DNA of 32,000 bases from Pyrodictium occultum (lineage in GTDB: Archaea > Thermoproteota > Thermoprotei_A > Sulfolobales > Pyrodictiaceae). Positions 15,942 to 31,536 of the stretch are shown here, in pieces. Under the pieces are notes generated by a model, which was not told where the DNA came from, made no database searches, and saw only the letters and a program-made list of their open reading frames with translations. The position numbers were made by a program, and so were the translations under genes. The stretch lies in assembly GCF_001462395.1 (NCBI RefSeq), contig NZ_LNTB01000001.1, forward strand, positions 810,001-842,000, given 5' to 3'. Position 1 is the first letter of the stretch; each line of letters starts with the position of its first letter.

Positions 15942-15994
15942 GCCTATTTGCCCTCCATGGCAGGGTTAAGGCGTGCATAACCGCTGGTACGGGG

Positions 15995-15999: not shown

Positions 16000-16023
16000 G
16001 GTGTGTGGGCTGGTTGAGCGCCT

Positions 16024-16794
16024 CTAGGCCTCCTCGGCCTCTTTGGCGGCCTTCTCGTAGTATAGCGGGTGGTGGTGCTTCACGAAGTCCTCGGGAGCGG
16101 TGCCGGTGCGGAAGATAGCCCTCACCATGGGCCTGTGCTCCGGTATCCCTATGGCGAGGTACACGTGCACTATGAGCCCTGCTATGCCGAGCCATGCTGC
16201 CCACACGTGTATTGTGTGCGCCAGCGCCACTGTCTCCGGGCTGAAGCTGCTGCGGAACCACATTACCATGCCCGTGGCGAAGAGTATTGCGAAGCCTATG
16301 AACACGCTCAATATCCACAGCTTCTGGCCTAGATTATACTTGCCGAACCTGACGCTCCTCCTCCCGAGGTAGTAGGCTGCCAGGTTCCTCACTGCCTCGC
16401 CCAGCCCGCCCTCAGGCCAGATCTGCCACTTCCTTATCCTCGGCAGCTCGCCGAGAAGCCATACCAAGCCTATAGCCGCCATGCCTACTCCTGCCAGCCT
16501 GTGGATTACCCTGGCCACCTGCACCCCTAGGCTGTAGGCGCTGTAGCCCTGCTCAAACGGGGAGTAGCCGAGCGCCTTAGCCAGGTAGGAGGCCGGTGTG
16601 CCGAGCGCGTAGGCTAGCCAGCCGAAGAAGCTGTCCAGCGGGCTCGGCAGCTTGGCGGCCGATATTATTAGCCCCGTGAGTATCAGCGCCGCCGCGAAGT
16701 GTACCACATGCTTATGCGTCCATATCTCCAGCTCGCTGAAGAGCCTAATCTCGCGCGCCACCTGGAGCCACCTCCCAGGGCGTGGGTGGGTCAT
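16024..16794 (-). CDS. fdnI: Formate dehydrogenase gamma subunit-like membrane cytochrome b (FdnI / Ni-Fe hydrogenase b-type cytochrome family)
   Basis: ORF track, 256 aa. RLFSELEIWTHKHVVHFAAALILTGL, FGKYNLGQKLWILSVFIGFAILFATG and HTIHVWAAWLGIAGLIVHVYLAI give multi-TM helices with conserved His positions. It starts 21 nt after the beta gene. Confidence 0.75.
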   Translation of the reverse strand: MTHPRPGRWLQVAREIRLFSELEIWTHKHVVHFAAALILTGLIISAAKLPSPLDSFFGWLAYALGTPASYLAKALGYSPFEQGYSAYSLGVQVARVIHRLAGVGMAAIGLVWLLGELPRIRKWQIWPEGGLGEAVRNLAAYYLGRRSVRFGKYNLGQKLWILSVFIGFAILFATGMVMWFRSSFSPETVALAHTIHVWAAWLGIAGLIVHVYLAIGIPEHRPMVRAIFRTGTAPEDFVKHHHPLYYEKAAKEAEEA

Positions 16795-16815
16795 GGGAGA
16801 AAGGGGTGAGCCTGG

Positions 16816-17619
16816 CTACCCGCCCTTGGAGCCGCTGCGCTTCTCCATCCTCTTGGCCCGCCAGTAGACGGCGTGCGCCACCGCGCCTAGCGCGGCCAGC
16901 GCCGCCAGCCCGACGCCGACCTCGCGGCCTAGCTGCACGCCTGGCAGGCGGCCTCTCGGGTCGGCGGGGAGCCCCAATACCTCGTACCACTTCTTGCCCT
17001 GCTTGGCGCCGAGGCTCCTATACTTCCTGGTCACGTAGAGGTAGTGGGTGTGCCCCACGTAGTCGTTCACGTGGTCGCCGTAGACCTCGTAGCCTGCTGC
17101 ACGGTACTTCTCCACAAGCTCCCTCCACGGCCCGAACTCGAGCGCGTCGGTAGGGCAGGCCTCGACGCAGGCGGGCTGGAGCCCGTTCTGTATACGGTCT
17201 ATGCAGAGCGTGCACTTGTACACCTTGTTCGTCTTAGGGTCGTAGCGCGGCACATTGTAGGGGCAGGCCTCGATGCAGTAGCGGCAGCCGATGCACCTGT
17301 CGGAGCGTATCACCACGGCGCCCTCGGGGTGGACCTCGATGGCGTTGACCGGGCACGCCTTGGCGCAGGGCGCCTCGCTGCAGTGGAGGCACTGGTGCTT
17401 CTTGAACAGCCAGAAGGGCTCCCCGTCCTCGACGCCCTCCAGGAACTGCATTATCATCCAGGTGTTCGGGGTGAGGTCCGGCGGGTTGGTGTAGCCCTGG
17501 GGGTTGAAGCTGGTCTCCTCGGCTTTGAGCCCGTTCCACACCTTGCATGCTACCTGGCATGCCCTGCAGCCTATGCAGGTGTCCAGGTTGACTACTATCC
17601 CATACTCCGTCACGGGCAT
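16816..17619 (-). CDS. fdnH: Formate dehydrogenase beta subunit, 4x[4Fe-4S] ferredoxin-type with C-terminal TM anchor (FdnH-like)
   Basis: The track ORF is over-extended to 17832. The real start is ATG 17619 (MPVTEYGIVVNLDTCIGCRACQVACK), preceded by GGAGGTGAG. Cys clusters: CIGCRACQVAC, CLHCSEAPCAKACP, CIGCRYCIEACP and CTLCIDR...CVEACP. The C-terminal helix is VGVGLAALAALGAVAHAVYW. Confidence 0.9.
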   Translation of the reverse strand: MPVTEYGIVVNLDTCIGCRACQVACKVWNGLKAEETSFNPQGYTNPPDLTPNTWMIMQFLEGVEDGEPFWLFKKHQCLHCSEAPCAKACPVNAIEVHPEGAVVIRSDRCIGCRYCIEACPYNVPRYDPKTNKVYKCTLCIDRIQNGLQPACVEACPTDALEFGPWRELVEKYRAAGYEVYGDHVNDYVGHTHYLYVTRKYRSLGAKQGKKWYEVLGLPADPRGRLPGVQLGREVGVGLAALAALGAVAHAVYWRAKRMEKRSGSKGG

Positions 17620-17651
17620 CTCACCTCCCGGTCCGTTGGGCGGAAGAAGGG

Positions 17652-20600
17652 TTAGAGTATGGGCTGCACGCTGGGCTTCGACTGGTAGGTGTATTTCTCG
17701 GGGCTCGCCTTCCTCACCCATGCCAGGAACGCCTTGGTCTCCTGCATGGTTGTCACTATGTCGAGCAGCAGTATCGATATAGTGTTGGCTACGTCGAAGC
17801 TGTTGTGGGCGCCGCTCCAGCCCCAGTGCCACGGCACGTTTACCACGTAGACCTCCCTGCCCGCTATCCTCAGCTTCGGCATACGGTTGGTCACCAGGGC
17901 TCTCACGTATATCCTGTTGCGGTTGTTGCCCAGCTCGACAATATCGCCGCTCTTTATCCCGAGCTTCTCAGCCAGCTCGACCGGTATCTCCGCGAAGGGC
18001 TCCGGCACCATCTCGGCGAGATAGGGGACGTTCCTGGTCATTATGCCGGTGTGCCAGTGCTCCTCCAGCCTATTCTCGGTAACCACTACCACCTCGGACC
18101 CGCTGGGAGCGTACTTCTTCAGCTCCTCGTAGCTAGCCGTAATCGCCTTGTAGAGCTCTGGCATCTGCTCCGGCGGCTCTATGTAGAAGAGGTTCTCTAT
18201 CCTCCTCCACGCCAGCGCCGGGTACTCCGTCGCCAGCTCCAGGCTCGGGCTCTCGCCGGGCTCGAAGTGGAACGGGTAGTCGATGCTGTACGCCCAGACC
18301 TTGCCGTCGGGCCCTAGGGTGGCGTACCACTCGCCGTACCGGGATATTAGCTCCTTCACGCACTTCTTGTAGTTGTCGGGGCTGCCGTCGACGCAGGACT
18401 TGAACTCGTTGATGAACTTGTCGTGCACCCGGCGCCACTCCTTCCAGTCCTTGTATACTATGGTCTTGCCGTTGACGGTCTTGGATCCCTTGAAGTAGGG
18501 CTTGTAGAAGTTCGCCTTGCCGTAGTCGAGCACCAGCTCGGGGTCGTAGTAGAAGCTCTCGCACATCGGGCACTTGATTCCAAGCTCCTCCACGGTCTTT
18601 ACCTCGTAGCCGCCGCCGGGCTTCCAGAACACTATCCTGCCCACGGTCTTGCCGTAGCGTATCATAGCCTCCGGGTCGGCTGCGCCGGTGAATATGTCGG
18701 CCGTGGTCTTCTGGCTGCAGCGCTCGTTGAGGCATGTCCAGGCCCGCTTGTAGAACTTTCCTATCAGGAAGTTGTGGCCGGGTATGAACGCTGGTCTCAT
18801 CTCACCAGTCTTGGCGTCTACTATGTCGCCGGCCTCGCCCAGTATCTCGACCGTCTTGCCGTCCAGCTCGGGGCCTACAGCCCACCTGCCCGCCTCGAAG
18901 GTGAACCTGTCTTTGCGGCCGAAGGTCTTCTCTAGCGTGTAGAGGTTGTAGAGTATCCTCACGTTTCTGGGCCAGCTCCATCCCCAGTCCTTGTAGAGCC
19001 TCAGCGGCGCCTTGGCTCCAGGGTGTGTGAGGGTGCCGCTGTCCAGCAGCCCGTCGGGCTGGCCGGGCGACCGCGGTGCCGAGACCCTCCTCGCGGCCAG
19101 CACCCTATTGTGGGCCCAGTCGTACTGGCCATAGTAGAGGTCGACGGCCGCGTCTATCTCCTTGTAGACGAGTACTGGGTCTACCTCCTGGTAGTCGCTC
19201 CACGGGTACCTGTCACTGCTGTAGTTCATGTAGGGGGCTATCCTCCGCCTGTACAGCTCCACAAGAGTATCGGCCTCGGGATGCTTCACCAGCACGCGCT
19301 CCACGTGCTTGCCGTACTCCTCGCTGGGCAGCTTCGCCAGCCCAGCCCTCCTCATGTGCTCCCAGAGCTTGTACATTATCCACAGGTCCGGCTTGGCGTC
19401 GCCGGGCGGCGAGACCACGCGGTGCTGCCACTGTATCCAGCGGTTGCTGTTGGTTATGCTGCCCTCCTTCTCGTACTGGAAGGCTGCGGGGAGGAAGACG
19501 TCGGCGAACCAGGCTGTCTCCGTGAGGAAGATGTCCGAGACGACTAGGAACTTGAGCGCGGAGAGCGCTGCCATAGTCATCTTGGAGTCTGCGTCGCTTA
19601 TCGCTATGTTCTCGCCGAACAGCCACATAGCCTCAATCTTGCCGCCCAGCTTCCTAGTCCTCGGGTCATCGGGCAATAGTACGCCCATCCACCAGTTGTT
19701 CTCGGTGTAGCCCTTGTTGAAGGGCAGGTCGCTGATAACCACGCTGTCCTCGTCCCAGGGCCTGTCCTCGGGGTCGGTGCCGACGAAGATCCCCATGGAC
19801 AGCTCGTAGCGGCGCCAGTTCATGAACCACCATGACCAGAGCAGCGCCGTGCTGTTGACCGTGAGCCTGCAGTTGTCGCCCTTCTCGTCGCAGCCGCTGC
19901 ACTTCAGCCCCAGGGCCTTGCAGGTCTTCATGCTGGGGCGCCAGTTGAAGGCGTCGGGGAAGCCCTTGAGCTTCCACTCCTGGTAGGCGCGCACCTGCTT
20001 ACTGTTGGTTGGTATCTTCACGTAGCCTGGGAATATGTGGCTCAGTATGCAGAGGTCGGTGGTGCCCTGCACGTTGCTGTGGCCGCGGTAGGGGTTGAGG
20101 CCGCCGCCGGGGAAGCCCAGGTTGCCGAGGACCAGCTGGACCAGCGCGGCCATTCGGGTGTTCTGGGTCCCCACGTGGTGCTGGGTGAGCCCCATAGCCC
20201 ACTCTATGGAGGCGAACCTCTTGAAGTTTGTTGTTACACCGCTGTTCTCGACAAAGAGCTTCGCTATCTGTCTAAGCTTCTCGACCGGTATACCGGTTAT
20301 CCTCGAGACCTCCTCGGCGGTGAACCTCTTTGCTATATCCTTTATCTCCGAGATCTCCTCCAGGTCTATGTTGAACCTCTTGGCGTACTCCCTGAACGTG
20401 GGGAGCTGGTCTACGGGCGGGTTGCGCTCGTAGAACGCGTAGTGGAGAAGGTAGTACATCACGGGTATGTCGGTCCCGGGCCTGTGGAAGGCGAACACCT
20501 GGGCCTTGGAGGCTGTGCGGCCGTACTTCGGGTCGACGACTACCAGGGTGAGGGTGCCGCGCTTAATACCCTTCATCACGTGCCTCATGGAGACCGGGTG

Positions 20601-21332
20601 GGCCTCGGCGGGGTTGCCGCCTAGGATGAGGTAGACACTGATGTACTGGGTGTCGGGGAAGCTCTGAGTCTGGGCCCCGAAGCCCACGGTGCCCGCTAGG
20701 CCGGCCACGGTGGTGGAGTGGCAGCGGCGCGCATCATGGTCTATATTGTTGCTGCCGAGGAGCATTGAGATCTTCCTTATCAGGTATGCCTCCTCGTTCA
20801 GCATCTTAGCCCCGGCCATTATCATGAGCGGGTACTGGTTGCCCAGTCGGAAGTAGCAGCCCTTCCTGCTGCCGCACAGCTTCCCGTCGTAGGGGTGGTA
20901 AGAGCGCACCGCGCCAGCATTCTCCCCGAGTATCTCCTTCATCCTCCTCGCTATGTAGGCGAACGCCTCCTCCCAGGTCACCGGCTTCCAGACGGGCTTG
21001 TACTTCTCCAGCACCCTCCGGAGCTCGTTGGAGTCCCTGGCGGCGAGTATCTCCTCGGGCCGGGGCTTGGGGTTTACACGTATCAGCGGCTTCCTCGCCC
21101 GCAGCCCGTTGTAGGCGCCGAAGAGCTGGATGGAGGCCTTGCCCTTGGCGCAGAGCTTGCCCTCGTTAAGCGGGTTATCGGGGTCGCCCTCGAGGTAGAC
21201 TACCTTGTCGCCCCTCTTGTAGAATATGATGCCGCAGCCCACGCTACAGTAGGTGCAGACACCCCGGACCTCAACGGTCTCCTCGAGGTTCTTGCCCCCT
21301 ATCTCGCCGAGACGGTAGCGCTTCGGGGCCAT
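17652..21332 (-). CDS. fdnG: Formate dehydrogenase-N-type catalytic alpha subunit (bis-MGD molybdo/tungstopterin oxidoreductase), Cys-type, with large insertions
   Basis: ORF track, 1226 aa. It is collinear with E. coli FdnG as I recall it. VCTYCSVGCG is the N-terminal [4Fe-4S] site. DARRCHSTTVAGL aligns with ARVUHGPTVASL, so Cys replaces Sec. Other matches: GGNPAEAHPV, VVDPKYGRTAS, GLTQHHVGTQNTRMAALVQLVLGNLGFPGGGLNPYRGHSNVQGTTD. Confidence 0.95.
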   Translation of the reverse strand: MAPKRYRLGEIGGKNLEETVEVRGVCTYCSVGCGIIFYKRGDKVVYLEGDPDNPLNEGKLCAKGKASIQLFGAYNGLRARKPLIRVNPKPRPEEILAARDSNELRRVLEKYKPVWKPVTWEEAFAYIARRMKEILGENAGAVRSYHPYDGKLCGSRKGCYFRLGNQYPLMIMAGAKMLNEEAYLIRKISMLLGSNNIDHDARRCHSTTVAGLAGTVGFGAQTQSFPDTQYISVYLILGGNPAEAHPVSMRHVMKGIKRGTLTLVVVDPKYGRTASKAQVFAFHRPGTDIPVMYYLLHYAFYERNPPVDQLPTFREYAKRFNIDLEEISEIKDIAKRFTAEEVSRITGIPVEKLRQIAKLFVENSGVTTNFKRFASIEWAMGLTQHHVGTQNTRMAALVQLVLGNLGFPGGGLNPYRGHSNVQGTTDLCILSHIFPGYVKIPTNSKQVRAYQEWKLKGFPDAFNWRPSMKTCKALGLKCSGCDEKGDNCRLTVNSTALLWSWWFMNWRRYELSMGIFVGTDPEDRPWDEDSVVISDLPFNKGYTENNWWMGVLLPDDPRTRKLGGKIEAMWLFGENIAISDADSKMTMAALSALKFLVVSDIFLTETAWFADVFLPAAFQYEKEGSITNSNRWIQWQHRVVSPPGDAKPDLWIMYKLWEHMRRAGLAKLPSEEYGKHVERVLVKHPEADTLVELYRRRIAPYMNYSSDRYPWSDYQEVDPVLVYKEIDAAVDLYYGQYDWAHNRVLAARRVSAPRSPGQPDGLLDSGTLTHPGAKAPLRLYKDWGWSWPRNVRILYNLYTLEKTFGRKDRFTFEAGRWAVGPELDGKTVEILGEAGDIVDAKTGEMRPAFIPGHNFLIGKFYKRAWTCLNERCSQKTTADIFTGAADPEAMIRYGKTVGRIVFWKPGGGYEVKTVEELGIKCPMCESFYYDPELVLDYGKANFYKPYFKGSKTVNGKTIVYKDWKEWRRVHDKFINEFKSCVDGSPDNYKKCVKELISRYGEWYATLGPDGKVWAYSIDYPFHFEPGESPSLELATEYPALAWRRIENLFYIEPPEQMPELYKAITASYEELKKYAPSGSEVVVVTENRLEEHWHTGIMTRNVPYLAEMVPEPFAEIPVELAEKLGIKSGDIVELGNNRNRIYVRALVTNRMPKLRIAGREVYVVNVPWHWGWSGAHNSFDVANTISILLLDIVTTMQETKAFLAWVRKASPEKYTYQSKPSVQPIL

Positions 21333-22892: not shown

Positions 22893-23649
22893 CTAAGAAG
22901 ATAGCCTAGTGCCCCAGGGGCGGCCCCGGCCATAGAAGCCGCCTTGGCTGCCCCGAGCCGCCGGCATACCCCCGGGCCCCCGCCTCCCCGAGGCCGCGTA
23001 GAGGGCGAGGCCTGCGAGAAGGCCGGCCAGGGCCAGGGGCTCCAGCCCCCAGAGCCCCTGGTAGGGGTCCTCGAAGCGGAGCACGAGCGTCCCGCTGCCC
23101 GACGGGACGCGGACGAGGATCACGTTGGCCTCGGCATCCCTCGCCAGGGGGACCGGCGACCCGTTGAAGTAGGCCCTCCAGTGGGGGTACCAGGCCTGGC
23201 TCACCAGGAGCCAGGCAGGCTTATCGGGCTCCACGCTGAACTCTATCAGCCCGTCGCCGACGTGCATGCCCGACACATGAAGCCTGGGCGGCCGGTAGAA
23301 CGCGTACACCAGCTCCCCCAGGAACTCCTCCTCGGCCCTGCTGTGGCTGTAGAGGCGTGGTAGAACATGTTAAGCGAGACAAAGACGGCCAGCCCCCTGC
23401 CCGCCCTCCTCGCCGCCACCACGGGGGTCCCGTTAGCCTCCAGGAGCACGGAGTTCCAGGACCCGCCGCTGTAGACCGTGGCGACCCATGCGTCTCCCTG
23501 GTAGCTGTACTCGGCCTCCCAGCCAGCGGCGCCGGGCACCGAGCTCGGCGGGCTAGATATCGCCGGCCCTGGAGGCGGGGGAACCCGGCGCCGAGGTAGC
23601 TGTGGGCGAGGAGGAGAGCAAGCAGCACAGCCGTGGAGAGGAACACCAT
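22893..23649 (-). pseudogene. Frameshifted secreted/membrane-anchored protein, third paralogue of the extracytoplasmic domain found in the two wHTH membrane proteins
   Basis: Three overlapping track ORFs in three frames. 23649 starts with signal peptide MVFLSTAVLLALLLAHSYLGAGFP. The next frame reads GWEAEYSYQGDAWVATVYSGGSWNSVLLEANGTPVVAARRAGRGLAVFVSLNMFYHA. The last frame reads LYSHSRAEEEFLGELVYAFYRPP...WYPHWRAYFNGSPVPLARDAEANVILVRVPSGSGTLVLRFEDP...LEPLALAGLLAGLALYAASGRRG. The first junction is at the G5 run 23577-23581. The second is near 23350-23362. Confidence 0.5.
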
Positions 23650-23691: not shown

Positions 23692-25140
23692 CTAGCCCCT
23701 GGGGGCCCCCAGGGCCGCCGAGCCCTCCCCGAGGACGTAGTGGTAGCGGTAGAGCAGCCTCGTAGGGTAGACCTCGTACTCGAAGAGGGATTTGCGCAGC
23801 TCGAGGAGGCCGTAGCCGGCCAGCCTCCTACAAGCCTTCAGCACCGCGCCGGGCGGTATCGAGAGCCTGGCCGCTATCTCGTGCACCGTTACCCCGGGCT
23901 CCCGGGCGGCCAGGCGGGCTATCTCCTCGTAGAGCGGGTCGACGGCCAGTAGCGCCGCCGGCAGGTCCTCGGGGTATACGTAGAGCCGCCCCCGGGCCTC
24001 CGGCACCGAGGCCACGGCGCCCCGCAGCTCGAGCAGGGTGAGGCGGCGGCACAGCCTACGCCAGCCCGCCCCCAGCCTGGCCGCCAGCTCCTCAAGGCTC
24101 ATAGGCCCCGAGTCCCTCAGCAGCTCGACTATCCTCGCATCCATCTCGCGCGGCTTGTAGAGCCTGGCCAGGGGCCTCAGCACCAGCAGTCGGATCCTGC
24201 GGGGCGCCAGGCAGGCCAGCGAGGCGGCGAGCAACGCCAGGTAGGCGGGGAATGCCACGAGGGCTGCCGCGGCCAGGGCTCCGGGCAGCCCGCCTCCCGC
24301 GGCAGCCGCCACTCTCCCGAAAGGCCTGAGGAGGGCCAGGGCCGCGTTGTGCAGCACAGCCTTCACACGGTGCCTTGCCGGAGGGGGCTCCGGGGTGACG
24401 GCCTGCATCTCCTCCACCACTATGCCTGCTAGGAGCCCTGCCATCTCCGCCCCGTTGCCCTGGCTCACCACCGCCTTAACCGGGTTGAACGCGGCAGTGA
24501 CAACGACTCCGCGGCCGTACCTGTTGGCCAGTATGGCTGGGTGTCCCTCCTGGAAGGCGGCGAGCACACGGGCTCCCTGGGGCTCGAGGTGCATGGCGCC
24601 GTAGGTGTCGTTGTAGGCGTATACCCGCCCCCGGTAGACTATGTCGTAGAGGGGCGTGTCGGCGCTACTGGATGCTACACCGGCTACCCTGGCCCCAGCC
24701 ATGGACTCTAGAAGAGGGTGCCAGTGCTGCACGAAGGTGTTCATGCCTATGAAGAGCAGGTGGCCTCCCCTAACATACTCCGCCAGCGCCTCTATCTCAG
24801 CTGGTGTAAGCCGCCCGCCGTAGGTGAAGAGCCTGTTAAGGTCTGGTATGAGCACTGCGTCGTAGCGCCAGAGGAACGCGGGATCGCTGAGCCTTGCGCG
24901 CTCCGCGCCGGCGGAGGGGTAGCTCTTGCTCAGGTACAGCACTCTCACATCCACTTGGAGCCCGGCGGCGGCAGCGCTGTCGGCTATGCTGCGGGCCCAT
25001 AGTATGTCGTCAAAATCGCTGGCCACCACTAGCATGGAGCGGGGGCGGCCCGGGCCCCCGGCAGCGGAGGCGGCGGAGACGCTGCAGGCTAGGATAGCGG
25101 CTGCCAGCACCACTAGAACCGGGGCAGCGCTCCTAGGCAA
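23692..25140 (-). CDS. Membrane-spanning protein: signal peptide + extracytoplasmic domain + TM segment + two cytoplasmic winged-helix (ArsR/MarR-like) domains
   Basis: ORF track, 482 aa, TTG start. The N-terminus is MPRSAAPVLVVLAAAILACSVSAASAA. The hydrophobic block is GALAAAALVAFPAYLALLAASLACLA. The wHTH-like segments are RIVELLRDSGPMSLEELAARLGAGWRRLCRRLTLLELRG and VTVHEIAARLSIPPGAVLKACRRLAGYGLLE. It is a paralogue of 27170..28459. Confidence 0.7.
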   Translation of the reverse strand: MPRSAAPVLVVLAAAILACSVSAASAAGGPGRPRSMLVVASDFDDILWARSIADSAAAAGLQVDVRVLYLSKSYPSAGAERARLSDPAFLWRYDAVLIPDLNRLFTYGGRLTPAEIEALAEYVRGGHLLFIGMNTFVQHWHPLLESMAGARVAGVASSSADTPLYDIVYRGRVYAYNDTYGAMHLEPQGARVLAAFQEGHPAILANRYGRGVVVTAAFNPVKAVVSQGNGAEMAGLLAGIVVEEMQAVTPEPPPARHRVKAVLHNAALALLRPFGRVAAAAGGGLPGALAAAALVAFPAYLALLAASLACLAPRRIRLLVLRPLARLYKPREMDARIVELLRDSGPMSLEELAARLGAGWRRLCRRLTLLELRGAVASVPEARGRLYVYPEDLPAALLAVDPLYEEIARLAAREPGVTVHEIAARLSIPPGAVLKACRRLAGYGLLELRKSLFEYEVYPTRLLYRYHYVLGEGSAALGAPRG

Positions 25141-25188
25141 ATACTACACCCTTCGCCTGAGCCTGGAGAGCCTCTAGGCGGCCTCCGG

Positions 25189-25196
25189 CTTTAAAG
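25189..25196 (-). promoter_or_regulatory. TATA-box candidate (ctttaaag) for the 482-aa gene
   Basis: The palindromic TTTAAA at 25190-25195 lies about 50 nt upstream of TTG 25140, in the 79-nt spacer after the GT2 gene. Confidence 0.35.
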
Positions 25197-25219
25197 CTGC
25201 CAGCACGGCTCTCCAACAA

Positions 25220-26677
25220 TTATGCAGCGCCCCATGTAATCCTCTCGCGGAGCAGCGCTCTTATCATGGCATCAGTCTTAGCCACCGCCAGCAGCGGGAT
25301 GTAGAGGAGCGTGTATATGAACGCGTAGGGCGCTATCCTCACGGCACTCCCTGCCCCGTACTCGGCCCCATACGCTACTATAATGCTGAGAGACCCCATT
25401 ATGACCGTGGAAGCCAGCGCGGCCAGATAGGCTGCCAGGAAGACCGGCAGGGGGAGGGCCAGCACCTCTAGCCCGAGCAGCCCGTAGACAGCCACTATAG
25501 CTGCCAGCGTTATGTAGCCGGCTACATGGAGCAGGGGGAGGAGATACTCGACGCCCAGAAGGTAGACAGCCAGCAGCCGCCCATAGAGGTAGGAGGCGTG
25601 CCCAGCCCTCCGGAGGCCCAGCAGGTTTGCATGCTTGAGGAGAACCTGGAGGCCCCCAGCATACCAGCGTATCCGCTGCCTATAGAGGCCCCGGAGGCTC
25701 GAGGGCGTGATGGTGTAAGCCACGGCGCTGTGCTCGTAGCCAGTCCTCAGCCCCCTCTTCCACACCATTACGGTGAGGTCGAAGTCCTCCGCTAGAGTGT
25801 CCTCCGGTATGCCACGCTCAGCCAGGGGCTTCAATACTATGGAGCGGAAGGCGCTGAACGCGCCCGAGAGTATCAGCGTGGCCCTGCTGACCGCGTCCTC
25901 CATGAAGCGGCCCAGCTCAAAGCCGAGGAAGTACTCTATGCGCTGCATCCAGTAGAGGAGGCCCCCATGCCCGGCCGGGATGAGGCGGCCGCACACGGCC
26001 CCCAGCCCGTCCTCGTAGAGGAGCCTGGACACGAGCCTCCTGACCGCGTCCCTCTCCGGCACCGTGTCAGCGTCAAGGACGATTATGACGTCTCCAGTGG
26101 CTCTCCGTATACCCGTGGTTAGCGCCTCGGCCTTCCCCAGGTTGACCTCGTGCCTCACAGCCCTTATGAACGGGTACCTCCTAGCATAGCTGCTCACTAT
26201 AGACCAGGTGCCGTCCGTGGAGCCGTCGTCAACGATTATCACCTCCATCAGCTCCCTCGGGTAGTCCTGATGGAGGAGGGCGCGCAGGACACGGCCGATA
26301 ACCTGCTCGCCATTGAACACCGGGATCTCTACCGAGACCCTCGCCGGTATCCCCGGGTGCAGCCGCCCCCCGGGATGAGCCTTGTAGACCCTGGCCAGCA
26401 CGAGCTTACTGAAGACCCTCGACGCGTAGAAGGCTGCCGTCACGCCCCCGATGAGGCTGTAGAGGAGGACGACCAAGGGGAGCCCCGGGCTAGCCGCGCC
26501 CCGGCCGAGGTGGAGGGCCTCCACCAGCCGGTCCATGATCACGCGGGCTAGGAGGAGCCCTAGGGCGAACCAGAGTACGCCCCCGGCTATCCCCACGAGC
26601 CTGGTCTGCCACCTGGCTGCACTCCCCAGCCTGTAGCCCTTCCCCGCGGTCATTGAGCCCTCTACGCTACCGGTCAC
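25220..26677 (-). CDS. Processive family-2 glycosyltransferase (PgaC/NodC/cellulose-synthase-like beta-glycan synthase), multi-TM
   Basis: ORF track, 485 aa (GTG 26677; ATG alternative at 26653). Motifs in canonical order: VIIVDDGSTDGT, VLDADT, SGAFSAFR, TLAEDFDLT and YRQRIRWYAGG (QxxRW). There are two N-terminal and several C-terminal TM helices. Confidence 0.9.
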   Translation of the reverse strand: MTGSVEGSMTAGKGYRLGSAARWQTRLVGIAGGVLWFALGLLLARVIMDRLVEALHLGRGAASPGLPLVVLLYSLIGGVTAAFYASRVFSKLVLARVYKAHPGGRLHPGIPARVSVEIPVFNGEQVIGRVLRALLHQDYPRELMEVIIVDDGSTDGTWSIVSSYARRYPFIRAVRHEVNLGKAEALTTGIRRATGDVIIVLDADTVPERDAVRRLVSRLLYEDGLGAVCGRLIPAGHGGLLYWMQRIEYFLGFELGRFMEDAVSRATLILSGAFSAFRSIVLKPLAERGIPEDTLAEDFDLTVMVWKRGLRTGYEHSAVAYTITPSSLRGLYRQRIRWYAGGLQVLLKHANLLGLRRAGHASYLYGRLLAVYLLGVEYLLPLLHVAGYITLAAIVAVYGLLGLEVLALPLPVFLAAYLAALASTVIMGSLSIIVAYGAEYGAGSAVRIAPYAFIYTLLYIPLLAVAKTDAMIRALLRERITWGAA

Positions 26678-27189
26678 AGCCTCCCCCCTCTCCTAATGAC
26701 CTCTGCCGCCTCAAGCGAGAGGAGTAGCGCCACGCTGCCGAGGAGGAGCAGGGGCCCGGCAATACTGTGCATCGATGCCGCAGCCTCCACGCCAAGCTTC
26801 TCAGCGGCAGCGGCTACGAGGAGTATGCGCAGTATGTTGGCGAGGTATATGACGAGGAAGCCTGCCGTGAGCCAGTAGAGCCTCCTCCAGAGCCTCATGG
26901 GGAGGAGCAGCGAGGCGGCTAGGAATATCGTGTAGGATACCAGGCCGCTGCAATGCCAGTCTATCCTAAGCCCGACCACCTCCCCGCCGCGGATGATGTA
27001 GATAGTCCTCCCTACCCTTACATGGCTCACCCCGGCCAGGTCCAGTATGGCGCTCAGGCTGGCCGCCTCCACCTCCAACGGCCTGTCGCCGGCCAGGCCC
27101 GCCGCAGCCCAGACCAGGACCGCGGCCGCTAGGGCGGCAGCCGCCCGGCCGGCCAGCCTGCCCAGCAGCCTAGGCATAGGCCTCGCCAC
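26674..27189 (-). CDS. Minimal exosortase/archaeosortase-family protein (171 aa)
   Basis: ORF track, 171 aa (GTG 27189; ATG at 27177). It has the ordered Cys/Arg/His hallmarks of the family, set in TM helices: RIDWHCSGLVSYTIFL, VIYLANILRILLV and ASMHSIAGPLLLLG. Its TGA 26676-26674 overlaps the GT2 GTG 26677. Its start overlaps the upstream gene's stop (27172-27170). Confidence 0.6.
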   Translation of the reverse strand: MARPMPRLLGRLAGRAAAALAAAVLVWAAAGLAGDRPLEVEAASLSAILDLAGVSHVRVGRTIYIIRGGEVVGLRIDWHCSGLVSYTIFLAASLLLPMRLWRRLYWLTAGFLVIYLANILRILLVAAAAEKLGVEAAASMHSIAGPLLLLGSVALLLSLEAAEVIRRGGRL

Positions 27190-28459
27190 CGCGGGCTAGA
27201 AGCCTGGGTACCAGCCTAAGGGCCCAGTCGGAGAGCCGGTAGCCGTAGCCGGCCTCCTCCACGACGTTATGCACGCGTAGAACATCGATATGATGCTTAA
27301 CGGTGGACTTGCTCATGCCCAGAGCGCGGGCGAGCTGAGATATACTGGCAGGCGACTGGAGCAGCGCCTCCGCTATCCGGCGCCGCGGCTCAGCCTCGAG
27401 GAGGAATGCGAGCACGGCTTCAACGGCTCTCCCCCTCCTATAGTATATCTGCGTGTTCAGCACCCTGCGGGTCTCGAGGAGCCCCGCGTCCACGAGCAGG
27501 GTTAGGTGCCAGAGCGCCGGCGTCCTCTTCAGCCCCAGCTCCCTCACAACCATGCCGAGCGTCACGTAGCCCCGCCTCTCAGCCAGCTCCAGGATCTTAG
27601 CCCTCACCGGGTGCTTGGCGGCGTCCGCCCCGCGTATTCGGTGGGCCAGTACCGCTACAGCCGCCCAGGGCCTCATGAGGTGCCGGAGCATCCTCTCTCC
27701 ACGGCTGCTGCTGGAGCTAGACTGGGCGGCGGCAGCGCTGAGGGCGGCGGCGACAGCTGCGGCGGCCAGAGCCGTGCCCAGGCCCCCGGCCAGGTAGCTG
27801 TGGAGGGCCCGGACCAGCCTGGTGAACCCCTTCTCCCCGTCGATGGTGGGCCAGACCGGGTTGAAGAAGAGGAGCACCAGCCTCCCACGGCCATAATGCA
27901 TCGCAACTATCGCCGGGTCGCCGTCGCTGAACCGCGCCAGCACCCTCCAGCCCGCCTGAGGCAGGACGCGGAAACGGCGGTACTTCCACGTCTTGTACAC
28001 TATGCTCGCCGGAGCACCGTGGAGCTGGAGGCCGAGGGAAGCGTGGATAGCGTGAACACCGCTCCCCTCATCCTTAGCCACCAACCCTACTCTTGCGAGC
28101 ACGCCCGGCTCGTAGACGCTGATAGCCCGCAGCGTGTTGTAGCCGAGCACCACGGTGGCGCCCTTCTCCGCGAGCTCTAGCAGCCTCTCCCCGAGGCCCC
28201 GGGGCCAGCCGCCGCAGCTGGGGGCGTTGTAGTCGAGCACGTACACGTAGCCGGGGACCGTGTCCGGCAGCACGCACTTCGCGGGCGTGAACCCGGCCCC
28301 AAGCTCCTCGAGGAAGAGTAGATCGCCCCGGTCGCTCGCCAGGAATACTGCCCCCTGCCCCGCCAGGGCCGGCGCGGCTGCAGCGGCCGCAAGCGCGGCG
28401 GCCAGCGCCACCGCCACCGGCTGGAGCCTTGCCCCCACCCTGCCCATAGCCGTGTACAC
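27170..28459 (-). CDS. Membrane-spanning protein: signal peptide + extracytoplasmic domain + TM segment + two cytoplasmic ArsR-type winged-helix domains
   Basis: ORF track, 429 aa (GTG 28459; ATG at 28447 gives MGRVGARLQPVAVALAAALAAAAAAPALAG). The TM segment is GLGTALAAAAVAAALSAAAA. The wHTH segments are HPVRAKILELAERRGYVTLGMVVRELGLKRTPALWHLTLLVDAGLLE and RRRIAEALLQSPASISQLARALGMSKSTVKHHIDVLRVHNVVE. Confidence 0.7.
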   Translation of the reverse strand: MYTAMGRVGARLQPVAVALAAALAAAAAAPALAGQGAVFLASDRGDLLFLEELGAGFTPAKCVLPDTVPGYVYVLDYNAPSCGGWPRGLGERLLELAEKGATVVLGYNTLRAISVYEPGVLARVGLVAKDEGSGVHAIHASLGLQLHGAPASIVYKTWKYRRFRVLPQAGWRVLARFSDGDPAIVAMHYGRGRLVLLFFNPVWPTIDGEKGFTRLVRALHSYLAGGLGTALAAAAVAAALSAAAAQSSSSSSRGERMLRHLMRPWAAVAVLAHRIRGADAAKHPVRAKILELAERRGYVTLGMVVRELGLKRTPALWHLTLLVDAGLLETRRVLNTQIYYRRGRAVEAVLAFLLEAEPRRRIAEALLQSPASISQLARALGMSKSTVKHHIDVLRVHNVVEEAGYGYRLSDWALRLVPRLLARGGEAYA

Positions 28460-28670: not shown

Positions 28671-29429
28671 CTAGAGGCTCTCGAGGATGGCCCTGGCGAG
28701 CAGGGCCACGCCGCCACCGCTCTCGCCGGGGAGGATCAGGTCCGCCCCCTCCCGCAGCCTCGGGTCCGCGTTCCCCACGGCGGCCAGGGTTACGCCCGCA
28801 TCCCTCATCTCGAGGTCCATGGCCGAGTCCCCGACGGCCACCACGCAGCCGGGCTCCAGCCCCGCCATGCGCATGGCCACCCGGAGCCCCAGACCCTTGC
28901 TCGCCTCCAGCGGCCTCACGTGGAGCGCGTAGCCGCTATGGCTCAGCTTGGCCCGGAGCCCCCTCTCCCGGAGCACCCTCTCCGCCATCCTCCAGGCCTC
29001 CTCCGGGCCCACGCGGCGCACCAGGAACGCGTAGTCGTGGATCCTGCACCGGTTCTGCCAGCTCGGCTCCAGCAGCCCCCCGAGCTCCTCCTCCAGCGCC
29101 TCCGCGGCAGCCCTCGCAGTCCCCCGGCAGGCGTGGACAACGCTGCCACGCTGGTAGACCAGGCACCCGTTCTCCGCCACATGCGGGCCCCGCACCCCTA
29201 TGTACCGCGCGACCCCCGCAGCCACCATGACGGAGTTCCCGGTGACCAGGATAACCCGAACCCCGGCATCCTCCAGCCTCCTCAGCGCCTCCACAGCCTC
29301 CAGGCTCAGGCGGAAGTCGCCGCTAACCCTCCTCTCCGTAATCGTCCCGTCAATATCCACCGCAACCCCGCAGACCCTCCCAGGGAGGAGACGGGCCAGC
29401 TCACCCGCACTAGCCACACCCGCCAACAC
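28671..29429 (-). CDS. HAD-superfamily phosphatase, archaeal phosphoglycolate-phosphatase-like (Cof/IIB type)
   Basis: ORF track, 252 aa. Motifs: VAVDIDGTIT (motif I), ILVTGNS, SKG, and VAVGDSAMDLEM (motif IV). It is collinear with my recollection of Pyrococcus PH1421-type enzymes. Confidence 0.8.
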   Translation of the reverse strand: MLAGVASAGELARLLPGRVCGVAVDIDGTITERRVSGDFRLSLEAVEALRRLEDAGVRVILVTGNSVMVAAGVARYIGVRGPHVAENGCLVYQRGSVVHACRGTARAAAEALEEELGGLLEPSWQNRCRIHDYAFLVRRVGPEEAWRMAERVLRERGLRAKLSHSGYALHVRPLEASKGLGLRVAMRMAGLEPGCVVAVGDSAMDLEMRDAGVTLAAVGNADPRLREGADLILPGESGGGVALLARAILESL

Positions 29430-29837: not shown

Positions 29838-30021
29838 ATGTTATTCCTTAGTGAAGGATGCCCCGGGATTCCATGCGCCTCCCCTGCGGGCTTGTGGAGC
29901 TGTCTCGAAGCTGATTGTTCGAGAAACCGTCTAGCCTACATATAATGGTGTGCCCCAGCTTTCCTGGCGGATTAGGAGTTGCATAGATTAGAGTGTGCAG
30001 AGTACTAACATTACAGTTGTG

Positions 30022-30447
30022 ATGGTTGTGATGGAGGTAATATTCGTGGAGGAGCACCCGCTCCGGGCCCGGATACTCCAGCTGCTCAGGGAGCATGGCG
30101 CGGTATACTATAGCGAGCTCCTGCGCAGCCTTGAGGCCTCGCGGGCTACGCTCAGCTGGCACCTCTACGTGCTGCTGCGGGAGGGGCGTGTCGGGGCCAT
30201 CCGGTACCGTAGGTATACCATCTACTACCTCCGGGGCCGCGAGCTCGAGGCCGTCAGGAGTATAGCTGGGAGGGATAGGCTGTTCTGCAGCGTTCTACGC
30301 GACCTGGCGGCGGGCGCCCGGCCGGAGGAGGTGGCGGCTCGCTACGGGATAAGCGTCAGGGGGCTAGAGGGCCTGCGGGAGCTCGCCAGGAGGCTCCGGG
30401 GCAGGCTCGATGAGGTCTGCGGCGAGGAGCAGAATGTAGGCGAGTGA
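30022..30447 (+). CDS. Small winged-helix (ArsR-like) transcriptional regulator
   Basis: Track ORF starts at 29995; the likely starts are ATG 30022 or 30031 (MEVIFVEEHPLRARILQLL...). HPLRARILQLLREHGAVYYSELLRSLEASRATLSWHLYVLLREGRV resembles the first wHTH of the 429-aa membrane protein. Confidence 0.7.
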   Translation: MVVMEVIFVEEHPLRARILQLLREHGAVYYSELLRSLEASRATLSWHLYVLLREGRVGAIRYRRYTIYYLRGRELEAVRSIAGRDRLFCSVLRDLAAGARPEEVAARYGISVRGLEGLRELARRLRGRLDEVCGEEQNVGE

Positions 30448-30819: not shown

Positions 30820-31536
30820 GTGAGGCTGCAGGGCAGGCGCAGGGCAACCCTACTAGTCATCCTGGCGGCGGTGGCAGCCCTGTCGGTAGCTAACGCGAGC
30901 GTTTTCGCCTACCGGACACTCTATGGCAACGTCAAGATAGCTGATATAACGCAGGGCCAGGACCAGACCAGCATAACGCAGTATGGCCTGGCATGCGTAG
31001 GCTTCTACACGAGCGACTCTATAGAGGATCGGGGTGTGCTGCCCACCGCGGGCACGAACTACAACGCTGCGCCGATAGGGACCACGAGCACCGGCGGCTG
31101 GTACGGCGTGAATGTAGTCCCCGGAGACGTTGCCTGCAGCTGGACAAACACGAGCACCAATAACACCAACACGCTCTACAAGACAGCGACAGTGTATATA
31201 AACGTCACTAACGGTGACTGGTACTTCAAGGACATACTCGGCTTCGGCTACCCCAACATAACGAGCAGCCCAAGCCCCGCCTACGTGACAGTGCGTGTCG
31301 AGGGAGCCCTCAGCAACACCAACATAACTGAAGCTCTACTGAAGATATACGATGCTAGTAGCGGGAACCTCAGAGGGCAGATAGACCTGAAGAACAACGG
31401 CGACTACATCAACTTCACGCTGATGCCCGGCCAGGGAGTCCAGATAGACCTGGATCTCTCCGCCACCGGTGCTGTATCACTCGACAACTTCACAGTGAGG
31501 TTCTACATATCGCCGAGCAGCGAGCAGCCTAGGTAG
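30820..31536 (+). CDS. Secreted, sequon-rich beta-type protein; candidate TasA/AbpA-like fibre subunit with SipW-type signal peptide
   Basis: ORF track, 238 aa, GTG start. The N-terminus MRLQGRRRATLLVILAAVAALSVANASVFAYRTLYGNV has a basic n-region, an h-region and an A.A..FAY segment resembling SipW-dependent signals. It has at least 8 N-x-S/T sequons (NAS, NTS, NNT, NVT, NIT x2, NFT x2) and no C-terminal anchor. It is followed by a signal peptidase gene. Confidence 0.6.
   Translation: MRLQGRRRATLLVILAAVAALSVANASVFAYRTLYGNVKIADITQGQDQTSITQYGLACVGFYTSDSIEDRGVLPTAGTNYNAAPIGTTSTGGWYGVNVVPGDVACSWTNTSTNNTNTLYKTATVYINVTNGDWYFKDILGFGYPNITSSPSPAYVTVRVEGALSNTNITEALLKIYDASSGNLRGQIDLKNNGDYINFTLMPGQGVQIDLDLSATGAVSLDNFTVRFYISPSSEQPR

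What the first reader, a model, noticed from the sequence alone, without database searches (positions are those of the whole stretch)
25220..27189. A half-size exosortase/archaeosortase-like protein translationally coupled to a processive GT2 polymer synthase
Three minus-strand genes are physically interlocked.
- The 429-aa membrane wHTH gene ends at TAG 27172-27170, inside the start region of the 171-aa ORF (ATG 27177 or GTG 27189).
- The 171-aa ORF ends with TGA 26676-26674, overlapping the GTG 26677 of the GT2 gene.

The 171-aa protein carries the catalytic-triad context of exosortases/archaeosortases in the correct order: DWHCSGLVSY (Cys), YLANILRILL (Arg) and SMHSIAGPLL (His). These sit within about 4 TM helices. 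The protein is roughly half the length of ArtA/EpsH-type enzymes (~300 aa).

The GT2 has every processive-synthase motif: DDGSTD, DAD, GAFSAFR, TLAEDFD and QRIRW.

In bacteria, exosortases are genomically tied to exopolysaccharide loci. A minimal sortase-like core wired directly to a PgaC/NodC-like synthase in a crenarchaeon, with no canonical PGF/PEP-CTERM substrate visible nearby, is not a system I can name. It could attach a protein to a secreted glycan or remodel it, or act on the synthase product itself. I vaguely recall a short crenarchaeal class (ArtE) in the exosortase classification but cannot verify that this gene belongs to it.
Basis: partly seen in the sequence, partly recalled or inferred. 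Interest (0 to 1): 0.85.

Follow-up and report, generated by a model that had tools for sequence, protein, structure and literature searches.

The report
Mini-archaeosortase coupled to glycan synthase
A small membrane enzyme of the protein-sorting "archaeosortase" family in the hyperthermophile Pyrodictium occultum is hard-wired to a sugar-polymer synthase (and physically fused to it in a relative) inside a gene cassette shared with Thermococcus; the family is named in databases, but I found no published study of it and its function is untested.

Summary
The window is from Pyrodictium occultum. The 167/171-aa ORF (CF15_04475) clears the exosortase/archaeosortase core models (TIGR04178 63 bits vs cutoff 23; Pfam 47 vs 25.7), and RefSeq already names it so. 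Cys80, Asn118, Arg121 and His141 are the only invariant columns across 26 short relatives. AlphaFold gives a confident 4-TM fold (pLDDT 94.9), but no solved structure was found to compare it with.

Coupling to the GT2 holds in 11 of 11 independent loci, including true Thermococcus ArtF loci, against 1 of 80 background GT2 loci. A Pyrodictium-like relative encodes both as one 647-aa protein. The invariant core is the GT2, the mini-sortase and two paralogous membrane proteins (ectodomain, TM, tandem wHTH). Optional members are a YfhO/PTPS-like protein, which is only a frameshifted remnant here, and a ~235-aa secreted protein with a conserved C-terminal tail, which is absent here.

The closest bacterial analogue is the XrtG system. 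Half-size exosortases are common. Function remains inferred. Verdict: a new variant of a known but apparently unstudied kind.

The parts
26674..27189 (-). Mini (4-TM) exosortase/archaeosortase-family protein, ArtF-like. It is CF15_04475 / KSW12040.1 as 171 aa from GTG 27189, and WP_168371271.1 as 167 aa from ATG 27177. Invariant residues: Cys80 (26950-26952), Asn118 (26836-26838), Arg121 (26827-26829), His141 (26767-26769).
   Evidence: TIGR04178 63 bits vs cutoff 23; PF09721 47.3 vs 25.7; ArtF 53.5 vs 150. Invariant columns. AF2 model pLDDT 94.9, pTM 0.86. Public names. Residue coordinates.
25220..26677 (-). Membrane GT2 of the PgaC/NodC/cellulose-synthase type (CF15_04470, 485 aa). It has 2 N-terminal and about 4 C-terminal TM helices. 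Motifs: DDGSTD 26213-26230, DAD 26066-26074, GAFSAFR 25844-25864, TLAEDFD 25778-25798, QRIRW 25664-25678.
   Evidence: Pfam Glycos_transf_2 120.6 bits. NCBIfam PgaC_IcaA 142.6 (cutoff 422), TIGR03111 98.6, NodC 91.8. PDB sequence hits to 6yv7, BcsA and hyaluronan synthases. TM scan. Motif coordinates.
27170..28459 (-). 'Type A' bitopic membrane protein (CF15_04480): signal peptide, ~190-aa ectodomain, Ala-rich TM, then two cytoplasmic ArsR-type wHTH domains. RefSeq starts it at ATG 28447 (425 aa). Its stop overlaps the mini-sortase start.
   Evidence: Pfam and NCBIfam HTH_5/HTH_20/ArsR hits. Orthologues lie directly upstream of the sortase in 9 of the 11 loci: 5 of the 6 Pyrodictium-type and all 5 Thermococcus-type/L006; in L011 it lies 5.5 kb downstream, and the window and L001 count as one locus (BLAST; alignments).
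23692..25140 (-). 'Type B' bitopic membrane protein (CF15_04465, 482 aa), a paralogue of type A. It has a signal peptide, an ectodomain with weak GH42M/DUF4350 (GATase1-like) similarity, a TM helix and two cytoplasmic wHTH domains.
   Evidence: Pfam hits. Orthologues adjacent to the GT2 in every locus with enough contig. Type A and type B are homologous over their full length: hhalign probability 99.8%, E=1.1e-27.
22893..23506 (-). Frameshifted C-terminal remnant of a YfhO/PTPS_related (GT-C-like) membrane protein. Pieces 23506-23354 and 23348-23058 match residues 678-828 of the intact 863-aa orthologue. The annotated 138-aa ORF CF15_04460 is 22893-23309.
   Evidence: BLAST and tblastn against L011_PTPS863. 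The two pieces are in different frames. The independent assembly L001 aligns at 99.85% identity with no gaps, so it has the same structure. UniRef calls it 'YfhO family protein'. Intact 807-863-aa orthologues sit in the cassettes of L011/L012, L093 and L094.

Best explanation
CF15_04475 of Pyrodictium occultum is a real four-helix 'mini' member of the exosortase/archaeosortase superfamily. It belongs to a divergent Pyrodictium-type branch of the lineage that NCBI calls ArtF in Thermococcus. It is one subunit of a conserved archaeal cassette. The invariant core of that cassette has four parts: (i) a PgaC/cellulose-synthase-like membrane GT2, (ii) the mini-sortase, and (iii, iv) two paralogous single-pass membrane proteins with an extracellular alpha/beta domain and two cytoplasmic wHTH domains. 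Optional members are a YfhO/PTPS_related GT-C-type membrane protein and a ~235-aa secreted protein whose C-terminus carries a conserved [PDN]-E-[FLYM]-[PG] tail.

Proposed mechanism: the GT2 polymerises and exports a glycan. The mini-sortase sits beside it, or is fused to it, with its Cys/Arg/His(+Asn) site at the outer face of the membrane. It acts as a cysteine transpeptidase on a cassette-encoded protein held at the membrane, and passes that protein to an acceptor linked to the exported glycan or to a lipid. The A/B pair scaffolds or transcriptionally regulates the machine. In P. occultum the YfhO-like gene is only a remnant and the small secreted protein is missing, so the system is reduced to the four-gene core.

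Shown here: family membership, residue invariance, predicted fold, synteny and the fusion. Inferred: catalysis, the substrate, the acceptor and the polymer made.
For: - Family: TIGR04178 63 bits vs 23, and PF09721 47.3 vs 25.7.
- Catalytic residues: Cys, Asn, Arg and His are the only invariant columns among 26 short homologues at 20-56% identity. In ArtA, Cys173, Arg214 and Arg253 are critical for activity (PMC9263693).
- Fold: a confident 4-TM model with a 3-stranded loop sheet, pLDDT 94.9. Cys, Arg and His lie 3-11 residues from the outer ends of TM2, TM3 and TM4.
- Lineage: ArtF is the top subclass model for every cassette-linked homologue, with scores stepping down 361, 162, 92, 68, then 51-60.
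- Synteny: the GT2 is adjacent or one gene away in 11/11 independent loci spanning Thermococcus and Pyrodictium-type archaea. Only 1/80 background GT2 loci has a sortase-family ORF, and that one is an XrtG-like pair.
- Fusion: a 647-aa sortase::GT2 protein with a continuous ORF appears in contigs from two sequencing runs. The join is topologically consistent, since basic residues place the sortase C-terminus and the GT2 N-terminus in the cytoplasm.
- Partners: types A and B are co-conserved paralogues.
- Candidate cargo: the small secreted proteins of both clades share a C-terminal tail although their bodies are unrelated by BLAST.
- Precedent: exosortases are linked to EPS production in the literature (PMC11980579; bioRxiv 10.1101/2023.06.07.544157).
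Against: - No enzymatic activity has been shown for any ArtF-type protein, and I found no publication on ArtF.
- The window holds no homologue of the small secreted protein, and a 5.8-billion-protein search returned none named for P. occultum.
- Most of the small proteins' tails lack a full TM helix and basic cluster, so they are not classical tripartite signals.
- The curated ArtF, XrtG and PgaC cutoffs are all missed by wide margins.
- The fusion is known from essentially one organism.
- The fusion model was unusable, so physical packing of the sortase against the synthase is not shown.
- The GT2 product and its processivity are inferred from motifs only.
Confidence: 0.5

Rival explanations
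1. The sortase's real substrates are the type A and/or type B membrane proteins. It cleaves them at the outer face, just before their central TM helix. That separates the ectodomain from the TM-wHTH part, giving a proteolytic switch that couples polymer export to transcription.
For: A and B are the only proteins besides the GT2 that accompany the sortase in every locus. P. occultum keeps them although the small secreted protein is gone. The type A stop overlaps the sortase start in most loci. Their layout of ectodomain, TM and basic stretch resembles an internal tripartite signal, and ArtA is known to process an internal one, HVO_0405 (PMC6098224). Haft's rule for dedicated systems is that enzyme and target are adjacent genes (bioRxiv 10.1101/2023.06.07.544157).
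Against: No PGF/PEP-like signature precedes the TM. Type A shows only a loose H-x-Y-[IL]-x-G that looks like the end of the folded domain, and the type B juxtamembrane region is variable. The type A TM is weakly hydrophobic and Ala-rich. There is no experimental support.
Confidence: 0.2
2. It is an ordinary ArtA-like sorting enzyme. It cleaves C-terminal signals of surface proteins encoded elsewhere in the genome and lipid-anchors them. The GT2 neighbourhood reflects only co-regulation of surface protein and exopolysaccharide for biofilm formation.
For: It belongs to the superfamily and has the conserved catalytic residues. ArtA works this way (PMC6098224, PMC7157517). Exosortase genes often sit in EPS loci without any proven chemical link (bioRxiv 10.1101/2023.06.07.544157).
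Against: A covalent sortase::GT2 fusion and 11/11 tight synteny, usually with overlapping or near-abutting genes, argue for a 1:1 physical partnership rather than loose co-regulation. No cargo is visible in 32 kb. The rest of the genome could not be scanned.
Confidence: 0.15
3. In P. occultum the cassette is decaying. The mini-sortase is a non-catalytic structural subunit of the synthase, or a relic without a current function.
For: The YfhO-like gene is a frameshifted remnant and the small secreted protein is missing. The closest relative (L004/L005) also carries only a fragment of the YfhO-like gene.
Against: The sortase, GT2, A and B ORFs are intact and retain every invariant residue. T. gammatolerans also lacks the YfhO-like gene but keeps an intact ArtF. 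Strict invariance of Cys, Asn, Arg and His down to 20% identity is what catalysis predicts, not a scaffold role.
Confidence: 0.08

Closest known systems
ArtF (NCBIfam TIGR04293, 'archaeosortase family protein ArtF') of Thermococcus gammatolerans, T. celer and other Thermococcus
   Same: Same size (165-166 aa), the same invariant Cys/Asn/Arg/His, and the best-scoring subclass model over nearly its full length. The same cassette partners are present: orthologous GT2 (36% identity), type A (28%) and type B (33%).
   Different: Only 24-26% identical to named Thermococcus ArtF. It scores 53.5 bits against a cutoff of 150, where true ArtF scores 361. Gene order differs: A-sortase-GT2-B here, B-GT2-A-ArtF-small protein-(YfhO) in Thermococcus. 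Here the small secreted protein is absent and the YfhO-like gene is a remnant. The phylum also differs (Thermoproteota rather than Thermococcales).
XrtG system of Gram-positive bacteria (XrtG TIGR03110, XrtG-associated GT2 TIGR03111, Firmicu-CTERM target)
   Same: A short exosortase sits directly upstream of a PgaC-like GT2. The XrtG-like metagenome locus L030 shows the same order with stop/start overlap. XrtG is the second-best subclass hit for the sortase (45.8 bits), and TIGR03111 is the second-best hit for the GT2 (98.6 bits). The system's composition is described in PMC12854382.
   Different: It is bacterial. Both curated cutoffs are missed (102.75 and 363.95). No Firmicu-CTERM-type target was detected. 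The XrtG system as described has no membrane wHTH paralogues.
ArtA of Haloferax volcanii (PGF-CTERM archaeosortase)
   Same: Same superfamily, with an active-site Cys and Arg. It cleaves membrane-anchored tripartite signals, including an internal one (PMC6098224, PMC9263693).
   Different: ArtA-class enzymes span the full 254-position EpsH profile, whereas this protein matches only positions 107-249. ArtA has many PGF-CTERM substrates and lipid-anchors them. It is not reported to be linked to a GT2.
EpsH/XrtA-type exosortases in bacterial EPS loci (PEP-CTERM)
   Same: The genomic tie between an exosortase-family enzyme and exopolysaccharide biosynthesis (PMC11980579; bioRxiv 10.1101/2023.06.07.544157).
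   Different: They have eight or more TM helices and one-to-many PEP-CTERM targets. The XrtA and 8TM_EpsH models score only 24-27 bits here.
PgaC/IcaA, NodC and BcsA-type GT2 synthases (for the partner gene)
   Same: The D, DxD, TED and QxxRW motifs; 2 N-terminal plus about 4 C-terminal TM helices; a near-full-length alignment to the PgaC model.
   Different: It scores 142.6 bits vs a cutoff of 422 for PgaC and 91.8 vs 550 for NodC. No PgaB/PgaD/IcaD-type partners were seen among the window's neighbours. The product is unknown.

Membership tests
Exosortase/archaeosortase superfamily (TIGR04178 / PF09721) | Score above the curated cutoff of the core signature models | tested here: met
   TIGR04178 63.0 bits vs 23; PF09721 47.3 vs 25.7.
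Exosortase/archaeosortase superfamily (TIGR04178 / PF09721) | Conserved catalytic Cys and Arg (plus a third His/Arg) near the outer membrane face of a polytopic protein | tested here: met
   Cys80, Asn118, Arg121 and His141 are the only invariant columns in 26 homologues. The 4-TM model has pLDDT 94.9, with these residues near the outer helix ends. Exact geometry was not measurable.
Exosortase/archaeosortase superfamily (TIGR04178 / PF09721) | Cognate proteins with a tripartite C-terminal sorting signal in the same genome | tested here: inconclusive
   None in the 32-kb window and none named for P. occultum in the homologue search. The whole genome could not be scanned. Relatives' cassettes encode candidates with a shared tail, but only 2 of 7 have a TM plus basic cluster.
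Exosortase/archaeosortase superfamily (TIGR04178 / PF09721) | Endopeptidase/transpeptidase activity | not testable with these tools
   Requires biochemistry or genetics.
ArtF (TIGR04293) | Score above the curated cutoff of 150 bits | tested here: not met
   53.5 bits. True T. gammatolerans ArtF scores 361.4.
ArtF (TIGR04293) | Gene neighbourhood as in Thermococcus ArtF loci (my own working criterion, not a curated definition) | tested here: met
   Orthologous GT2, type A and type B proteins are present in the ArtF loci of T. gammatolerans, T. celer and Thermococcus sp..
ArtE (TIGR04124) | Score above the curated cutoff of 95 bits | tested here: not met
   16.9 bits, ranking 14th among subclass models.
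XrtG system | XrtG model at or above 102.75 bits and partner GT2 at or above 363.95 bits on TIGR03111 | tested here: not met
   45.8 and 98.6 bits.
XrtG system | Adjacent Firmicu-CTERM target protein | tested here: not met
   No such gene lies in the cluster. NCBIfam found nothing in the cargo-like proteins of related loci.
PgaC/IcaA PNAG synthase (for the GT2) | Equivalog cutoff of 422.3 bits | tested here: not met
   142.6 bits, although the alignment is near full length.
Membrane-embedded GT2 synthases of the cellulose-synthase type | D, DxD, TED and QxxRW motifs with flanking TM helices | tested here: met
   DDGSTD, DAD, TLAEDFD and QRIRW are present. TM helices lie at about 25-52, 61-86 and 368-466. 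PDB hits include BcsA and hyaluronan synthases. Processivity itself cannot be tested here.

The most novel reading that the evidence does not exclude
The mini-sortase is a built-in subunit of a polysaccharide synthase complex. Either it covalently joins a protein to the nascent exported glycan (a protein-glycan ligase), or it clips the paired membrane-tethered wHTH regulators as feedback from polymer export. Either reading would give the first mechanistic explanation of why exosortase-family enzymes are tied to exopolysaccharide loci. The natural sortase::GT2 fusion would be a ready-made object for biochemistry and cryo-EM.
Probability: 0.2. Interest if true: 0.8.

Novelty: new variant of a known kind. 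Interest (0 to 1): 0.55.

Why it matters
Exosortases were named in 2006 for their link to exopolysaccharide loci. From the papers held here I found no demonstration of what that link is chemically. A 2018 review states that exosortases had not then been analysed experimentally (PMC6098224), and the 2023-2025 papers read here (bioRxiv 10.1101/2023.06.07.544157; PMC11980579) still describe transpeptidation and the attached moiety as proposals.

This locus belongs to a compact cassette, conserved across archaeal phyla, in which a minimal 4-helix sortase is always next to one glycan synthase and once fused to it. That reduces the problem to four to six proteins, in organisms such as Thermococcus for which genetic tools exist.

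It also extends archaeosortase-family enzymes into a crenarchaeon; reviews describe them as found in a subset of Euryarchaeota (PMC6098224). Finally, it flags two paralogous membrane-anchored wHTH proteins as obligate, unexplained partners. For Pyrodictium, which is known for its extracellular matrix of tubules (from general knowledge), a dedicated glycan-plus-sortase module could be relevant to surface or matrix biology. That connection is speculation.

Tried and rejected
- ArtE membership: rejected (16.9 bits vs 95).
- Structural superposition on an exosortase: not possible. The PDB profile search found nothing and Foldseek's best E-value was 1.3.
- Triad distances: model coordinates are not exposed to scripts.
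- AlphaFold model of the natural fusion. The permitted alignment had only three GT2 rows and gave pLDDT 51.8 and pTM 0.35, which is unusable.
- Scans for the close subfamily in 185,579 species genomes (errored) and in JGI metagenomes: no confirmed relatives. The lack of a self-hit is probably due to masking.
- The metagenome scan with the GT2 profile returned only generic GT2s at 42% identity or less. I used them as a background set instead.
- Cargo in the window: tblastn with five cargo-like proteins found nothing better than E=0.26.
- A sorting motif before the TM of types A and B: nothing convincing.
- The idea that long archaeosortases such as P0008 carry a C-terminal wHTH: Pfam found none.
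- Curated models for the partner proteins: none in NCBIfam.
- Literature on ArtF, or on this GT2 cluster in Thermococcus or Pyrodictium: nothing found. Haft et al. 2012 and Abdul Halim et al. 2018 are not held.
- The HAD-type hydrolase upstream (28671-29429) has no counterpart in related loci, so I excluded it from the cassette.
Full report
OBSERVATION. The 429-aa gene ends at TAG 27172-27170, inside the start region of the next ORF (ATG 27177 or GTG 27189). That ORF's TGA and the GT2's GTG share the tetranucleotide GTGA at 26677-26674. All quoted peptide motifs are present, and one search gives their coordinates. RefSeq and the N-termini of homologues favour the 167-aa form starting at ATG 27177.

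SOURCE. Exact-sequence look-ups identify the window as Pyrodictium occultum, locus tags CF15_04430 to CF15_04495. The mini-sortase is CF15_04475. GenBank calls it a hypothetical protein, and RefSeq WP_168371271.1 calls it 'exosortase/archaeosortase family protein'. The GT2 is CF15_04470. The flanking wHTH proteins are CF15_04480 and CF15_04465. 'Crenarchaeon' is therefore correct. The surrounding genes are housekeeping: a homocitrate/isopropylmalate-type pathway, a formate-dehydrogenase-like molybdoenzyme cluster, a riboflavin kinase and a MobA-like protein.

WHAT THE 171-aa PROTEIN IS. It clears the core models of the exosortase/archaeosortase superfamily: TIGR04178 63 bits against a cutoff of 23, and PF09721 47.3 against 25.7. 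The Pfam match covers only profile positions 107-249 of 254, so it really is a 'half-size' form. It fails every subclass model. ArtF is best (53.5 vs 150), followed by XrtG (45.8 vs 102.75). An exhaustive HMMER search of 1.84 billion representatives found only 88 hits below E=1e-3 and five below 1e-10, so the close lineage is rare. Across 26 short homologues at 20-56% identity, the only invariant columns are Cys80, Asn118, Arg121 and His141. AlphaFold2 gives a confident model (pLDDT 94.9, pTM 0.86). It has four long helices and a three-stranded sheet in the first outside loop. Cys, Arg and His lie 3-11 residues from the outer ends of helices 2, 3 and 4. Basic residues at the N-terminus, in the TM2-TM3 loop and at the C-terminus put all three on the cytoplasmic side, which is my inference from the positive-inside rule. 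No solved structure resembles the model. For ArtA, Cys173, Arg214 and Arg253 are experimentally critical (PMC9263693).

Half-size is not unusual. The curated ArtB, ArtD, ArtE, ArtF, XrtF, XrtG, XrtH, XrtK, XrtM, XrtR, XrtS, XrtX, XrtY and pacearchaeosortase models are all 150-187 positions long.

RELATION TO ArtF. NCBI names the Thermococcus relatives 'archaeosortase family protein ArtF', and the T. gammatolerans protein scores 361 bits on that model. For every cassette-linked homologue, ArtF is the top subclass model over nearly its full length. Scores step down from 361 to 162, 92 and 68, then 51-60 for the Pyrodictium-type clade. The window protein therefore belongs to a wider ArtF-like lineage but is not a member by the curated threshold.

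COUPLING TO THE GT2. I recovered eleven independent loci; the window and L001, and each pair of near-identical contigs, count once.
- Pyrodictium-type: the window/L001, L004/L005, L008, L009 and L010 have the order type A, sortase, GT2, type B. L011/L012 has type B, sortase, GT2, YfhO-like, type B', type A.
- Thermococcus-type: T. gammatolerans, T. celer, Thermococcus sp., L095 and L006/L007 have type B, GT2, type A, ArtF, small secreted protein, with a YfhO-like gene following in T. celer and Thermococcus sp.
The GT2 is adjacent or one gene away in 11 of 11 loci, usually with overlapping or nearly abutting genes. As a control, I searched 80 metagenome loci chosen only for encoding a PgaC-like GT2 (610 kb in total) with a sortase HMM. 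One had a hit. That locus, L030, is itself an XrtG-like sortase fragment (60.8 bits) whose stop overlaps the start of a TIGR03111-type GT2 (270.5 bits).

The strongest single item is P0003, a 647-aa protein in which the sortase module (residues 1-163) is joined by a ~30-residue basic linker to the complete GT2. The ORF is continuous in contigs from two sequencing runs, and a third variant exists. The source is probably a Pyrodictium species, because its cassette's small protein is 73% identical to one annotated 'Pyrodictium sp.'. The fusion is essentially one evolutionary event, so it is suggestive rather than conclusive.

THE GT2. It carries D, DxD, TED and QxxRW motifs, with two N-terminal and about four C-terminal TM helices. 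It aligns nearly end to end with the PgaC/IcaA model, but at 142.6 bits against a cutoff of 422. Its next-best hits are the XrtG-associated GT2 (98.6) and NodC (91.8). Its closest solved relatives by sequence are the GT2 of entry 6yv7, BcsA and hyaluronan synthases. The polymer it makes, and whether it is processive, are inferred only.

THE OTHER CASSETTE MEMBERS. The two flanking wHTH proteins are not incidental. They form two orthologous groups. Type A is the 429-aa protein, and type B is the 482-aa protein. At least one is present in every locus, and both wherever the contig extends far enough. The two groups are full-length paralogues of each other (hhalign 99.8%, E=1.1e-27). Each has a signal peptide, a ~190-aa extracellular alpha/beta domain with weak GH42M/DUF4350 similarity, one TM helix and two cytoplasmic ArsR-type wHTH domains.

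Downstream of type B, the window holds only a frameshifted remnant of a YfhO/PTPS_related membrane protein. It matches residues 678-828 of the 863-aa orthologue, and an independent assembly shows the same structure. Intact 807-863-aa copies exist in L011/L012, T. celer and Thermococcus sp..

Seven loci also encode a secreted protein of roughly 225-266 aa. The Thermococcus-type and Pyrodictium-type bodies are unrelated by BLAST, but all share a C-terminal tail: VPEFPFLE..., VDELPFLR..., VNEYP + TM + RK, or IPEMGPG + TM + RR. Unrelated bodies sharing a tail, encoded next to the enzyme, is what Haft describes for dedicated sorting systems (bioRxiv 10.1101/2023.06.07.544157). However, only two of the seven tails have a full TM helix plus basic cluster. 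The window has no such gene, and none of the hits in a search of 5.8 billion proteins carries a P. occultum name.

HOW IT MOST LIKELY WORKS. Four things are shown: superfamily membership, an invariant catalytic-type residue set, a confident 4-TM fold, and an obligate genomic (once covalent) partnership with one GT2 synthase and two paralogous membrane wHTH proteins.

The rest is inferred. I propose that the enzyme acts as an outer-face cysteine transpeptidase working beside the synthase, cleaving a cassette-encoded, membrane-held protein and passing it to an acceptor linked to the exported glycan or to a lipid. The A/B pair would scaffold or regulate.

The substrate is the weakest link. The small secreted protein is the best candidate in relatives. 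But P. occultum keeps an intact sortase without it, which shifts some weight to types A and B as substrates. ArtA offers a precedent, since it can process an internal tripartite signal (PMC6098224). Against that, I found no conserved signature before their TM helices. I put the general model at 0.5, A/B as substrates at 0.2, an ArtA-like enzyme with distant cargo at 0.15, and a non-catalytic subunit or relic at 0.08.

COMPARISON AND NOVELTY. The closest known family is ArtF. It shares the architecture, the invariant residues and the cassette, but the curated threshold is not met and the gene order and phylum differ. The closest bacterial system is XrtG with its associated GT2 (PMC12854382). 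It has the same sortase-then-GT2 design, but a Firmicu-CTERM target and no wHTH partners.

The gene is already labelled generically in RefSeq, and the pairing of a short exosortase with a GT2 is already curated. The finding is therefore not categorically new. I could not find any of the following described anywhere:
- the ArtF-like clade in a crenarchaeon;
- the six-component cassette shared between Thermococcales and Pyrodictium;
- the obligate paralogous membrane wHTH pair;
- the shared C-terminal tail of the small secreted proteins;
- the natural sortase::GT2 fusion.
I rate it a new variant of a known but apparently unstudied kind, with interest 0.55.

Noticed in passing
L004:7370-8059, L010:2-679, L002:8623-9336, L093:6715-7419, L094:6657-7376, L095:5398-6114, L006:8611-9411: Small secreted proteins (roughly 225-266 aa) are encoded inside ArtF-like cassettes. 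Their bodies are unrelated between clades, but they share a C-terminal [PDN]-E-[FLYM]-[PG] tail. In the Pyrodictium-type family, 8 of the 9 relatives retrieved end in 'IG[VI]DELP[FL]L...' or the variant 'IGVSEFPL' (the partial P0128 has no such tail), with no TM helix. This may be an undescribed dedicated sorting or docking signal. It is absent from the window.
   Followed up: partly
window 25141-25219: The 79-nt spacer between the GT2 stop and the type B start holds an 8-bp inverted repeat, GGAGAGCC ... GGCTCTCC. The repeat flanks a TTTAAA box about 50 nt upstream of the TTG start. It could be an internal promoter with an operator for the wHTH proteins. GGAGAGCC occurs only 3 times and GGCTCTCC only 5 times in the 32 kb.
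   Followed up: partly
window 30820-31536 (+): A 238-aa ORF (CF15_04495) has an N-terminal hydrophobic anchor or signal (RRRATLLVILAAVAALSVANA) and many N-x-S/T sequons. It matches no Pfam or NCBIfam family. It is a likely secreted glycoprotein of unknown function, 2.4 kb from the cassette, and lacks a C-terminal anchor.
   Followed up: partly
window 29995-30447 (+): A stand-alone 150-aa ArsR-type wHTH protein (CF15_04490 region), with differing annotated starts (138-150 aa). It lies between the cassette and the 238-aa secreted protein.
   Followed up: no
L030:74-1901: A high-GC, probably bacterial, metagenome contig carries an XrtG-like exosortase fragment whose stop overlaps the start of a TIGR03111-type GT2 (270 bits). 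This suggests XrtG-like pairs occur outside low-GC Firmicutes.
   Followed up: partly
L004:6008-6253 and L005:5986-6231: The fusion-bearing relative also has only a fragment of the YfhO/PTPS_related gene (residues 117-198 of 863). The gene therefore seems to be decaying independently in two Pyrodictium-type genomes.
   Followed up: partly
window 14060-21332 (-): A formate-dehydrogenase-like respiratory cluster: a 1226-aa molybdopterin oxidoreductase, a 4Fe-4S subunit, a cytochrome b, FdhD and an FdhE-like protein. It is unrelated to the finding.
   Followed up: no
window, whole: At 61-72% GC the window produces many long spurious ORFs on the opposite strands of real genes; the Arg/Pro/Gly-rich translations are examples. 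ORF length alone is therefore not evidence of a gene here. The species-genome scan did not return P. occultum itself, probably because the region is masked in that collection.
   Followed up: no
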